A DNA stretch of 25,190 nt from the IMG/VR virus record IMGVR_UViG_2695420597_000002; one strand, written 5' to 3'. Origin of the DNA: a virus (lineage: Duplodnaviria > Heunggongvirae > Uroviricota > Caudoviricetes). The position numbers were made by a program. Shown here piece after piece: positions 21,430 to 25,190 of the stretch. How positions within the stretch are numbered: position 1 is the first letter of the stretch; each line of letters begins with the position of its first letter.

Positions 21430-24400
21430 TCATCCTCTCCGGATAAGGCACGGGCGTAATCTGCCAGTGTTTTCTTGTTGGTTGCTGCACCATCCTCTTC
21501 CTGCAGGCTCGCCAGCAGTGCACTGAGATCCAGCTGCCAGCGGGAAATACTGATGCGCAGCGCCGCCAGCGCATAAACGAAGCAGTCGAGCGCCTCATTG
21601 CGTCGCTTTTTGCTGTCCCACAGTATTTTTTTCCTGCCATCCACCCATTTTTCGACCTGCTCTTCAGCAGTCAGCTGCTGCGCTTCGGTCAGATCAAAAA
21701 TATCCGGGTTATTCGGGAAGTGAACGGCACCGGGAAGCGGTTCATCCCCTTCCGGCGTCAGTGTGAAGCGGTTATAAATCTGCTCTTTCGCGGTATCCGT
21801 ACCGATTTCGGTAAGGTAAACCCCGTTTTTGTTTCGCTTACGAGGCATGCTGGCCACCGGCTTACCGTAGACGGATGCCCCTTTAATGGGGATCACCCGG
21901 AACAGCCCATGCTTTTTCGAGCGTTCATACACAATGGTCGGGTCAATCCCGCCAATATCCCAGCAGATACGGGATATCGACATTTCTGCACCATTCCGGC
22001 GGGTATAGGTTTTATTGATGGCCTCATCCACACGCAGCAGCGTCTGTTCATCGTCGTGGCGGCCCATAATAATCTGCCGATCAATCAGCCAGCTTTCCTC
22101 ACCCGGCCCCCATCCCCATACGCGCATTTCGTAGCGATCCCGCTGGGAGTCGATACCGGCGGTCAGGTAAGCCACACGGTCAGGAACGGGCGCTGAATAA
22201 TGCTCTTTCCGCTCTGCCATCACTTCAGCATCCGGACGTTCGCCAATTTTCGCCTCCCACGTCTCACCGAGCGTGGTGTTTACGAAGGTTTTACGTTTTC
22301 CCGTATCCCCTTTCGTTTTCATCCAGTCTTTGACAATCTGCACCCAGGTGGTGAACGGGCTGTACGCTGTCCAGATGTGAAAGGTCACACTGTCAGGTGG
22401 CTCAATCTCTTCACCGGATGACGAAAACCAGAGAATGCCATCACGGGTCCAGATCCCGGTCTTTTCGCAGATATAACGGGCATCAGTAAAGTCCAGCTCC
22501 TGCTGGCGGATGACGCAGGCATTATGCTCGCAGAGATAAAACACGCTGGAGGGGTCATCCGGCGTCCATTTGAGGCCAAACGGCGTCTCTTTGTCGCCAA
22601 ATTTAAGATACTGCTCCTCCCCGCAGTGCGGGCAGGCAACATGAAAACGCATAAAATGCGGGGATTCACTGGCTGCACGCTCAATCTGGCAGGTGCCTCT
22701 CACTTTGGGCGTGGAGCCACGGATGGACTTTGGCCAGACCGAGCCTTCAATACGTTTGTCGCCAAGGAACGTCGGAGAGCCTTCCTGTTCAATATCCTCA
22801 TCAAAGGCAGCAAGTTCATCATAACCCGCCACATCCACCGACTTTTCACGGTAGTTTTTTGCCGCTTTACCGCCCAGGCACCAGAAGCCACGACCATTGG
22901 AAAAACGCTTCATAGTGAGCGTGTTATCCCGGTGCTTTTTGCCATACCACGGAGCCAGCGCCAGCAGCGACGGAATATCGCGGATGGTCGGCTCAACGTG
23001 GGTTTTCATAAAGTTCTCGGCATCACCATCCGTCGGCAACCAGATAAGTGTGTTGCGCTGCTTATGCTCTATAAAGTAGGCATAAACACCCAGCAGCATT
23101 TTGGAATAACCGACACGGGCAGACTTCACCACATTCACCTCACGGATGTAGTCGCTGCCCATCGCATTCATGATGGCCCGCTGAAAGGGCAGTGTTTCCC
23201 AGCGCCCTTCCTGGTATGCGGATTCTTTCGGGAGATAGTAATTAGCATCCGCCCATTCAACGGCGGTCTGTGGCTCCGGCCTGAACAGTGAGCGAAGCCC
23301 GGCGCGGACAAAATGCCGCAGCCTGTTAACCTGACTGTTCGATATATTCACTCAGCAACCCCGGTATCAGTTCATCCAGCGCGGCTGCTTTGTTCATGGC
23401 TTTGATGATATCCCGTTTCAGGAAATCAACATGTCGGTTTTCCAGTTCCGGAAAACGCCGCTGCACCGACAGGGGGATCCCGTCGAGAATACTGGCAATT
23501 TCACCTGCGATCCGCGACAGCACGAAAGTACAGAATGCGGTTTCCACCACTTCAGCGGAGTCTCTGGCATTTTTCAGCTCCTGTGCGTCGGCCTGCGCAC
23601 GCGTAAGTCGATGGCGTTCGTACTCAATAGTCCCTGGCTGGAGATCTGTCTCGCTGGCCTGCCGCAGTTCTTCAACTTCCCGGCGCAGCTTTTCGTTCTC
23701 AATTTCAGCATCCCTTTCGGCATACCATCTTATAACGGCGGCAGAGTCATAAAGCACCTCATTACCCTTGCCACCGCCTCGCAGAACGGGCATTCCCTGT
23801 TCCTGCCAGTTCTGAATGGTACGGATACTCGCACCGAAAATGTCAGCCAGCTGCTTTTTGTTGACTTCCATTGTTCATTCCACGGACAAAAACAGAGAAA
23901 GGAAACGACAGAGGCCAAAAAGCCCGTTTTCAGCACCTGTCGTTTCCTTTCTTTTCAGGGGGTGTTTTAAATAAAAACATTAGGTTACGGCGAAGAAGAA
24001 CGGAAACGCCTTAAACCGGAAAATTGTCATAAATAGCGAAAACCCGCGCGCCTTCCGCCCCGTAACCTGTCGGATCGCCGGAAAGGACCCGCAAAATGAT
24101 AATAATTATCATCTACATGTCACAACGTGCATCTACGCCATCAAACCACGTCAAATAATCAATTATGACGCAGGTATCGTATTAATTGATCTGCATCAAC
24201 TTAACGTAAAAACAACTTCAGACAATACAAATCAGCGACACTGAATACAGGGCAACCTCATGTCAACGAAGAACAGAACCCGCAGAACAACAACCCGCAA
24301 CATCCGCTTTCCTAACCAAATGATTGAACAAATTAACATCGCTCTTGTTCAAAAAGGGTCCGGGAATTTCTCAGCCTGGGTCATTGAAGCCTGCCGCCGG

Positions 24401-25190
24401 AGACTGTGCTCAGAAAAAAGAGTTTCGCCTGAAGCAAACAAAGAAAAGAGTGACATTACTGAATTGCTCAGAAAACAGGTTAGACCAGATTGAAGCAATT
24501 TAGATAATCGTGCAGACTACGCCCCCTCATATCACATGGAAGGTACTACAATGGCTCAGGTTGCCATTTTTAAACAAATATTCGATAAAGTGCGAAATAA
24601 TTTAAACTATCACTGGTTTTATTCTGAACTAAAACGTCACAATGTCTCACATTACATTTACTATTTAGCCACAGAGAATATTCATCTTGTTCTTGAAAAC
24701 GATAATACGGTTTTAATAAAAGGACAGGGTAAGGTTGTAAATGTAAGATTTTCAAAAAATAAATGCCTTATAGAAGCCACCTTAAAAGGATTCAAATCAG
24801 GAGAGTTATCATTTTACGAATACAGGAAAAATCTTGCTACAGCAGGGGTTTTCAGATGGATTACAAATATCCACGAAAACAAAAGGTATTACTATACCTT
24901 TGATAATTCATTACTCTTTACTGAGAACATACAGAACACTACACAAATATTTCCGCACTAAATCATAACGTCCGGTTTCTTCCGTGCCAGAACCGGACTC
25001 GCTGGCATGATGAAATATGTGTACCCGGTAACCCCGGTGTGCATCGTTTTTGATTATTCCCGCACACTCGCGCAGAAGGAGTTCCCCGTCGGGCTACGGT
25101 CTCTGTTAATACGGGAATACGGCGACGATTGGATTTGCCCCTATATTTCCAGACATCTGTTATCACTTAACCCATTACAAGCCCGCTGCC

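What the first reader, a model, noticed from the sequence alone, without database searches (positions are those of the whole stretch)
24260..24961. Ribbon-helix-helix plus DUF1398 gene pair next to cos, antisense to the late operon
These are the only plus-strand genes in the window, separated by 43 bp and much more AT-rich than the structural genes. One looks like an Arc/CopG-type DNA-binding protein, the other is a conserved domain of unknown function. Their position and orientation match the lysogen-expressed moron slot where lambda keeps bor, so they are candidates for a lysogenic-conversion or phage-exclusion module of unknown function.
Basis: partly seen in the sequence, partly recalled or inferred. 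Interest (0 to 1): 0.6.

Follow-up and report, generated by a model that had tools for sequence, protein, structure and literature searches.

The report
Known lambdoid prophage ynfO–ydfO gene pair
The two plus-strand genes beside cos are the well-known but functionally uncharacterised ynfO/ydfO (DUF3950 + DUF1398) accessory genes that phage lambda itself and about 94% of complete E. coli genomes carry at this spot, so the finding is real but ordinary.

Summary

The locus is nearly identical to ynfO-ydfO of the K-12 Qin prophage. Lambda has both genes too, with lambdap79/ybcW inserted between them.

The pair is not obligate. DUF3950 occurs without DUF1398 in Stx phages and in P4-like satellites of other Enterobacterales. 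The spacer length and frame vary. There is no PADLOC hit, and DUF1398 is an orphan fold.

The cos-proximal intergenic region carries perfect Fur and FNR boxes, and a PdhR-like box precedes ORF2. The K-12 equivalents are experimentally bound.

Best reading: two independent, host-regulated, lysogen-expressed accessory genes, namely a small RHH-like regulator and a soluble protein of unknown activity. Novelty: already known. Interest is low.

The parts
24260..24493 (+). ORF1, 77 aa, DUF3950 / YlcI-YnfO family (ynfO orthologue). It has a basic N-terminal arm, the motif NIRFP, and two helices. The C-terminal tail is variable.
   Evidence: Pfam PF13132 at 2e-20 (72.8 bits, cutoff 25), NCBIfam NF041551, phrog_949. 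Near-identical to K-12 ynfO. AF2 model.
24536..24961 (+). ORF2, DUF1398 (ydfO/ybcV/lambdap78 orthologue). It is 141 aa from the first ATG. The likely real start is 24551 (136 aa), behind the Shine-Dalgarno-like GGAAGG at 24538-24543.
24049..24060 (-). cosN cohesive-end sequence. Here it is the variant GGGCGGAAGGCG (read on the minus strand), in place of lambda's GGGCGGCGACCT.
   Evidence: Alignment to the lambda DE3 record, where cos is annotated. The variant occurs in 7 of 82 fetched loci.
24097..24111 (.). Perfect Fur-box palindrome, TGATAATAATTATCA (the 7-1-7 consensus).
   Evidence: One exact match in the window; 0.07 expected even allowing 2 mismatches. The homologous nohA/nohB sites in K-12 are predicted at 22-25 bits, and the nohA site is shifted by Fur in gel assays (PMC2189734).
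24096..24123 (-). Sigma-70-like promoter GTGACA-16-TATCAT, pointing towards cos and Nu1 and overlapping the Fur box.
   Evidence: Consensus scan, 10 of 12 matches. This is a consensus match only. nohA is reported as Fur-repressed (PMC3688515).
24186..24199 (.). Perfect FNR box, TTGATCTGCATCAA, ending 60 nt upstream of the ORF1 ATG.
   Evidence: It is the reverse complement of, and identical to, the site under the K-12 FNR ChIP peaks at nohB and nohA/ydfO (PMC1802558; PMC3688515). The region is identical in Qin.
24474..24490 (.). PdhR-like box AACAGGTTAGACCAGAT at the 3' end of ORF1, overlapping the -35 of the promoter-like site for ORF2.
   Evidence: Read from the sequence. One base (in the unspecified spacer) differs from the Qin site AAcaGGTcagACCAgaT, which is listed as a PdhR SELEX target (PMC7660256). 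It matches 10 of 14 consensus positions, so it was not found at 3 or fewer mismatches.
24481..24508 (+). Sigma-70-like promoter TAGACC-16-GATAAT, upstream of ORF2.
   Evidence: Consensus scan, 9 of 12 matches. This is a consensus match only.
23326..23871 (-). Nu1 terminase small subunit, the first gene of the late structural operon, divergent from ORF1 across cos.

Best explanation
The locus is the Qin-type ynfO-ydfO cassette of lambdoid prophages. It consists of two small accessory genes between the lysis genes and cos, transcribed against the late operon.

ORF1 (DUF3950) is most likely a small dimeric DNA-binding protein of the ribbon-helix-helix kind. It has a basic N-terminal arm, a short strand (RNIRFP) and two helices. 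It would act as a stand-alone transcriptional regulator, probably of its own promoter region. This function is inferred.

ORF2 (DUF1398, YdfO fold) is a soluble cytoplasmic protein with an orphan fold and unknown biochemistry.

The two genes are neighbours by mosaic recombination. They are not an obligate pair.

They are dispensable for lytic growth. They are expressed, if at all, in the prophage state under host regulators. Fur and FNR boxes sit in the cos-proximal region upstream of ORF1, and a PdhR-like box with a sigma-70-like promoter sits upstream of ORF2.

Shown: identity, family membership, distribution, and the presence and conservation of the regulator boxes. Inferred: the RHH fold and DNA binding, which promoter each box controls, and lysogen expression in this particular phage.
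For: Identity:
- Pfam, NCBIfam and PHROG hits.
- E=1.4e-69 to YdfO, PDB 2HH8.
- 95% DNA identity to K-12 Qin nohA-ynfO-ydfO, with all three regulator boxes kept.
- 5114 of 5426 E. coli genomes have a match.
- Lambda has the same genes with ybcW/lambdap79 between them.

Independence of the two genes:
- 40 DUF3950 loci in other Enterobacterales species have no DUF1398 or Nu1 within 5 kb.
- DUF3950 is found in 155 phage records and DUF1398 in 43.
- In phage YYZ-2008, DUF3950 sits alone between Rz and an HNH/TerS/TerL module.
- The spacer is 41, 42, 43, 44 or 57 nt, and the frame relation is not conserved.

RHH-like fold of ORF1:
- The AF2 model has a disordered arm followed by helices 19-32 and 34-52.
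- hhalign to the Arc family gives P=0.0014, places NIRFP on NLRWP, and only 1 of 300 column shuffles scores as high.

Regulator-like placement: in P4-like satellites the homologue is a lone gene on the opposite strand to the int-alpA-...-primase genes.

Host control:
- A perfect Fur box and a perfect FNR box.
- The K-12 equivalents are bound by Fur (PMC2189734), FNR (PMC1802558, PMC3688515) and PdhR (PMC7660256).
- ybcV mRNA falls 10-fold in a pdhR mutant.
- ydfO mRNA rises about 100-fold on [C2mim]Cl shock.

Dispensability: CRISPRi knock-down of lambdap78 leaves the efficiency of plating at about 1 (PMC10695390).
Against: - The AF2 models have only moderate confidence (pLDDT 66 and 61).
- No strong sigma-70 promoter was found upstream of ORF1, and no terminator after ORF2.
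- The literature assigns the Fur and FNR sites to nohA, not to ynfO. The K-12 FNR study saw no FNR-dependent expression change at this locus.
- No phenotype is known for either gene. The one published claim (YdfO and oxidative stress) is a mis-citation of YfdO.
Confidence: 0.6

Rival explanations
1. The pair is a toxin-antitoxin or abortive-infection/exclusion module. ORF1 would be an RHH antitoxin and auto-repressor, and ORF2 (DUF1398) the toxin or effector.
For: - The gene order, with a small RHH-like gene first and a short spacer, resembles type II TA loci.
- The location is AT-rich and prophage-borne.
- The top low-rmsd fold hits are RHH antitoxins.
- ydfO was flagged 'essential only by TraDIS', although multi-copy mapping or silencing can explain that.
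Against: - The genes are not co-inherited. DUF3950 occurs without DUF1398 in more than 100 phage records and in all 40 loci from other species.
- In lambda and DLP12 the two genes are separated by an oppositely oriented gene, and DUF1398 has its own upstream region.
- There is no PADLOC hit.
- DUF1398 has no structural similarity to any known toxin.
- The lambdap78 knock-down is neutral.
Confidence: 0.1
2. ORF1 is a cos- or packaging-associated DNA-binding factor. It would bind near cos or assist or regulate terminase, rather than act as a lysogeny gene.
For: - It sits directly beside the packaging module in two unrelated systems: lambda Nu1/A and the HNH-TerS-TerL module of YYZ-2008.
- Two distant family members are fused to a Terminase_2 small-subunit domain (1.6e-11).
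- Homologues are reported in capsid-forming PICIs (PMC13612085).
Against: - It is transcribed against the late operon.
- In P4-like satellites it lies among regulatory and replication genes, far from any packaging gene.
- In Tatumella, Pantoea, Salmonella and Buttiauxella it is a lone chromosomal gene.
- The Terminase_2 fusions are rare (2 of 108 clusters), and their genomic context could not be recovered.
Confidence: 0.1
3. ORF2 is a virion or envelope component, as database labels say ('head protein' in phrog_413 and RefSeq; 'putative envelope protein' for lambdap78).
For: Only the labels themselves.
Against: - No hydrophobic segment or signal peptide (maximum Kyte-Doolittle 19-residue mean is 0.39).
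- It is antisense to the late operon.
- It is dispensable for plaque formation.
- The solved structure is a small soluble domain, and no capsid-like fold was matched.
Confidence: 0.02

Closest known systems
ynfO-ydfO of the E. coli K-12 cryptic prophage Qin
   Same: The gene order nohA(-) / cos remnant / ynfO(+) / ydfO(+) is the same. DNA identity is 95% over 1.1 kb. ORF1 is nearly identical. The Fur, FNR and PdhR-like boxes are all conserved.
   Different: ORF2 here is a mosaic allele whose central third diverges (about 77% amino-acid identity). cosN carries a variant cohesive-end sequence. Here the flanking late operon reads as intact apart from the 8-N gap, whereas Qin is a cryptic remnant.
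Phage lambda right end (unnamed 64-aa DUF3950 ORF, lambdap79/ybcW, lambdap78, bor); also DLP12 ylcI-ybcW-ybcV
   Same: Both families are present in the same orientation between Rz and cos. lambdap78 is non-essential.
   Different: Lambda has about 560 bp more, carrying lambdap79 on the late strand between the two genes, and bor downstream. The window lacks lambdap79. lambdap79 is the reported activator of the Vulcan NADase defence, and escape phages lose it by recombination with Qin, which gives this window's architecture (bioRxiv 10.64898/2026.09.04.749371). The DUF3950 C-terminal tails also differ.
Arc/Mnt ribbon-helix-helix repressors (Pfam PF03869)
   Same: Small size. An N-terminal strand motif, N-[IL]-R-[FW]-P, is followed by two helices joined at a glycine. 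hhalign places them in register.
   Different: No HMMER-level homology. The conserved NFSAWV[IL][ED]AC motif in helix 2 is specific to DUF3950. The basic N-terminal arm is longer. Dimerisation and DNA binding are untested.
Lambda bor and lom (classical lysogen-expressed morons)
   Same: Low GC, orientation or insertion at module boundaries, presence/absence polymorphism among relatives, and dispensability for lytic growth.
   Different: bor and lom encode outer-membrane proteins with known phenotypes and documented lysogen expression. Neither ORF here has a signal peptide, a phenotype or direct expression data in a lysogen.

Membership tests
DUF3950 / YlcI-YnfO (PF13132, NF041551) | Profile score above the curated cutoff. 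| tested here: met
   Pfam 72.8 bits against a cutoff of 25. NCBIfam 35.2 bits against a cutoff of 30.
DUF3950 / YlcI-YnfO (PF13132, NF041551) | Conserved motif [KR]-x-IRFP ... NFSAWV[IL][ED]AC, shared with distant members. | tested here: met
   Alignments A2 and A4 with members at 36-58% identity.
DUF1398 (PF07166, YdfO-like fold) | Profile score above the cutoff over the full domain. | tested here: met
   147 bits against a cutoff of 22, covering profile positions 1-119 of 119.
DUF1398 (PF07166, YdfO-like fold) | Same fold as the solved member YdfO (2HH8). | tested here: met
Ribbon-helix-helix superfamily (Arc/MetJ/CopG) | Sequence-profile similarity to a bona fide RHH family. | tested here: inconclusive
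   No HMMER hit in Pfam or PDB. hhalign against the Arc family gives P=0.0014, probability 17.5%, and 1 of 300 shuffles as good.
Ribbon-helix-helix superfamily (Arc/MetJ/CopG) | Strand-helix-helix topology. | tested here: inconclusive
Ribbon-helix-helix superfamily (Arc/MetJ/CopG) | Dimer that binds DNA through the paired N-terminal strands. | not testable with these tools
   Needs biochemistry or a complex prediction.
Type II toxin-antitoxin pair | The two genes are consistently co-inherited as one operon. | tested here: not met
   In lambda the genes are split by an opposite-strand gene.
Type II toxin-antitoxin pair | The second gene belongs to a known toxin or defence effector family. | tested here: not met
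Moron (Hendrix/Juhala sense) | Present in some phages and absent from close relatives at the same position, with atypical base composition. | tested here: met
   DUF1398 and ybcW are present or absent among lambdoids. GC is 32-44% against 56%.
Moron (Hendrix/Juhala sense) | Own promoter and terminator. | tested here: inconclusive
   There is a promoter-like site before ORF2, and regulator boxes before both ORFs. No consensus promoter precedes ORF1 and no terminator follows ORF2.
Moron (Hendrix/Juhala sense) | Expressed from the repressed prophage. | not testable with these tools
   Only indirect evidence: K-12 cryptic-prophage transcripts of ydfO and ybcV respond to stress and to PdhR.

The most novel reading that the evidence does not exclude
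The DUF3950 protein is a phage- and satellite-borne RHH regulator that sits in a divergent control region shared with the packaging operon and is wired to host Fur and FNR. In lysogens in the iron-poor, anaerobic gut it would switch on the ynfO-ydfO cassette. It might also switch on a cos-proximal, late-promoter-independent transcript of the terminase small subunit. DUF1398 would be a new kind of effector (host-physiology or anti-phage). The conserved DUF3950 and DUF1398 flanks would also serve as recombination arms that let lambdoid phages shed the defence-triggering lambdap79 gene.
Probability: 0.1. Interest if true: 0.55.

Novelty: already known. Interest (0 to 1): 0.22.

Why it matters
These two genes are among the most widespread prophage genes in E. 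coli: 94% of complete genomes have a match, with a median of 3 places per genome. They are present in lambda itself, yet neither has a known function, so assigning one would close a small long-standing gap in lambda biology. This window adds no new kind of element. Its value is as a clean Qin-type example that lacks lambdap79. The conserved Fur, FNR and PdhR sites suggest specific conditions (iron limitation, anaerobiosis, pyruvate) under which to look for expression and phenotype.

Tried and rejected
1. A natural DUF3950-DUF1398 fusion protein (P0133, a cluster of 761 members) looked like a Rosetta-stone link. The DNA has an in-frame TGA, and the 'fusion' comes from gene callers reading TGA as Trp.

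2. Programmed read-through of that TGA. Here ORF1 and ORF2 share a frame with no further stop. In relatives, however, the spacer is 41, 43, 44 or 57 nt, or contains an extra TAG. The frame is therefore not conserved, and the idea was rejected.

4. Defence-system membership. PADLOC gives nothing.

5. The published phenotype 'YdfO overexpression increases oxidative-stress resistance' (PMC4077768). The cited source reports YfdO, not YdfO.

6. Genomic context of the DUF3950-Terminase_2 fusions. Viral-contig scans found only unfused satellite copies, or nothing.

7. Operator-like repeats upstream of ORF1. Apart from the Fur and FNR palindromes, only short, unconserved repeats were found.

8. Lambda ribosome-profiling and review papers (PMC3718152, PMC4424060) are not held in the library.

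9. The apparent tape-measure 'frameshift' is a run of 8 N.
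Full report
**Observation**

The window is the late region of a lambda-like prophage. Long minus-strand ORFs run without gaps from tfa (828-1409) through stf, J, the tail and head genes, A (21426-23351) and Nu1 (23326-23871).

On the plus strand, right of Nu1, lie ORF1 (24260-24493, 77 aa) and ORF2 (24536-24961, 141 aa). The spacer to the first ATG of ORF2 is 42 nt. The ATG at 24551 has a GGAAGG Shine-Dalgarno 7 nt upstream and gives the 136-aa product annotated in lambda, ev099 and K-12. It is therefore the more likely start.

GC content is 44.4% for ORF1 and 31.7% for ORF2, against 56.2% for the late genes. 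cosN lies at 24049-24060, by alignment to the lambda DE3 record in which cos is annotated. Across relatives, both ORFs vary most at third codon positions.

**What the genes are**

ORF2 is a full-length DUF1398 protein:
- Pfam 3.3e-43.
- E=1.4e-69 to E. coli YdfO, whose NMR structure is 2HH8.

ORF1 matches DUF3950 (Pfam 2e-20) and the NCBIfam YlcI/YnfO family. It matches no named RHH family.

DNA searches show how common the locus is:
- The 1.3-kb segment matches 5114 of 5426 complete E. coli genomes, with a median of three places per genome. PGAP annotates it there as 'YlcI/YnfO family protein' plus 'DUF1398 domain-containing protein' next to nohD.
- It also matches 177 phage records.
- Alignment with K-12 shows 95% identity to nohA / ynfO / ydfO of the cryptic prophage Qin.

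Lambda itself has both genes between bor and cos. In lambda, about 560 bp carrying lambdap79 (ybcW), which is on the late strand, lies between them. Of 90 fetched loci, 87 have the Qin-type order Nu1(-) DUF3950(+) DUF1398(+).

**Is ORF1 a ribbon-helix-helix protein?**

HMMER finds no RHH family in Pfam or among PDB sequences. This holds even with a profile built from distant members.

Three weak lines of evidence point towards RHH:
- The AF2 monomer model (pLDDT 66) has an unstructured basic arm (1-18) and helices at 19-32 and 34-52.
- A profile of DUF3950 members aligned to a profile of 22 Arc-family proteins gives hhalign P=0.0014. It places RNIRFP-helix on FNLRWP-helix. Only 1 of 300 column-shuffled Arc profiles scored as high, and the reversed profile scored 5.8.

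I rate the RHH fold as probable (about 0.7) but unproven.

**Are the two genes a module?**

The evidence says no.

- A scan of one genome per species found 40 genuine DUF3950 homologues (36-60% identity) in other Enterobacterales and one Pasteurellaceae. None has a DUF1398 or Nu1 homologue within 5 kb.
- Those homologues are 51-76-aa stand-alone genes. Many lie in P4-like satellites, as the only gene on the opposite strand between the int-alpA-Bro block and the primase block.
- Among deposited phages, DUF3950 occurs in 155 records and DUF1398 in only 43.
- In the Stx phage YYZ-2008, DUF3950 stands alone between Rz and an unrelated HNH-TerS-TerL packaging module.
- The spacer between the genes is 41, 42, 43, 44 or 57 nt in Qin-type relatives, so frame and spacing are not conserved.
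- An apparent fusion protein in the databases is a TGA=Trp gene-calling artefact.
- PADLOC has no hit for either protein.
- ORF2 has no hydrophobic segment. The database labels 'head protein' and 'envelope protein' have no support.

**Regulatory anatomy**

The 388-bp region between Nu1 and ORF1 contains the following, besides cos:
- A perfect 7-1-7 Fur box at 24097-24111 (0.07 expected). It overlaps a minus-strand promoter-like site that points towards cos and Nu1.
- A perfect FNR box, TTGATCTGCATCAA, at 24186-24199, ending 60 nt upstream of the ORF1 ATG.

Both boxes are conserved in Qin, and the K-12 equivalents have experimental support:
- The nohA site is shifted by Fur in gel assays, and the nohA and nohB sites rank among the strongest predicted Fur clusters (PMC2189734).
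- FNR ChIP-chip and ChIP-seq peaks map to exactly this sequence (PMC1802558; PMC3688515). No FNR-dependent expression change was seen there, however.

The FNR box would be centred at about -41 relative to a start near 24233, with GACAAT as the -10 element. That is a class II geometry for ORF1. This is my inference, not a result.

At the 3' end of ORF1, a PdhR-like box (24474-24490) overlaps a promoter-like site (24481-24508) upstream of ORF2. The Qin and DLP12 equivalents are PdhR SELEX targets, and ybcV mRNA drops 10-fold in a pdhR mutant (PMC7660256). In K-12, ydfO mRNA rises about 100-fold after ionic-liquid shock (PMC4077768).

**Other literature**

- CRISPRi knock-down of lambdap78 (the DUF1398 gene) does not reduce lambda plating (PMC10695390).
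- lambdap79, the gene that separates the pair in lambda and is absent here, activates the Vulcan NADase defence. Escape phages lose it by recombination with Qin, which yields precisely this window's architecture (bioRxiv 10.64898/2026.09.04.749371).
- The only published 'phenotype' for YdfO (oxidative-stress resistance) is a mis-citation of YfdO.
- No paper in the library assigns a function to ynfO/ylcI or to ydfO/ybcV.

**Verdict**

The finding is real and correctly placed. It is an already known, very common lambdoid accessory locus: ynfO-ydfO, with lambda's own homologues. Its function is unknown.

The best-supported reading is two independent, host-regulated, non-essential genes: a small RHH-like regulator, and a soluble protein with an orphan fold. 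The toxin-antitoxin/defence reading and the packaging-factor reading each remain possible at about 0.1. Novelty: already known. Interest: low (0.22).

Noticed in passing
window 24049-24060: The cosN cohesive-end sequence is a variant, GGGCGGAAGGCG, where lambda and Qin have GGGCGGCGACCT (5 of 12 positions differ). The surrounding cos region is otherwise nearly identical. The variant occurs in 7 of 82 fetched loci with the same flanks.
   Followed up: partly
window 24096-24123 and 24097-24111: A perfect Fur box overlaps a sigma-70-like promoter that points across cos into Nu1. This suggests an iron-regulated transcript of the terminase small subunit that does not depend on the late promoter. 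K-12 nohA/nohB are reported Fur targets.
   Followed up: partly
window 12474-12481: A run of 8 N inside the tape-measure gene splits it into two ORFs (11044-12288 and 12420-13520) in different frames. This is an assembly gap or mask, not a demonstrated frameshift.
   Followed up: partly
window 1-827: The left end of the window is the terminus of an IS1A element. In near-identical genomes the transposase CDS ends at about window position 23. It is followed by about 750 bp at 33% GC with no credible ORF, before tfa.
   Followed up: partly
L098-L125 (e.g. L105 = CP136411.1, Arcanobacterium hippocoleae 'plasmid unnamed1'): Contigs of about 3.55 kb in assemblies of unrelated organisms are 99.8-99.9% identical to one 3447-bp segment of lambda's right end, which carries the DUF3950, lambdap79, DUF1398, bor and lysis genes. 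This is almost certainly sequencing-control DNA. It explains 'YlcI/YnfO' proteins attributed to Staphylococcus, Bacillus, a spider and others.
   Followed up: yes
window 24536-24961 (residues about 62-99 of ORF2): DUF1398 alleles are mosaic. The N- and C-terminal thirds are conserved, while the central stretch is highly variable between the window, Qin and lambda alleles. AF2 could not model the same stretch confidently.
   Followed up: no
P0299 and P0332 (representative-library proteins): Two distant DUF3950 members carry a C-terminal Terminase_2 (small terminase) domain (1.6e-11). Their genomic context could not be recovered.
   Followed up: partly
window 24962-25190: Downstream of ORF2, similarity to phages Kati, ev099 and PhiR49_1 stops at about 25129, and other annotators call a 54-aa plus-strand ORF here. 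In the frame tried, the window has stops. The junction at the right end was not resolved.
   Followed up: no
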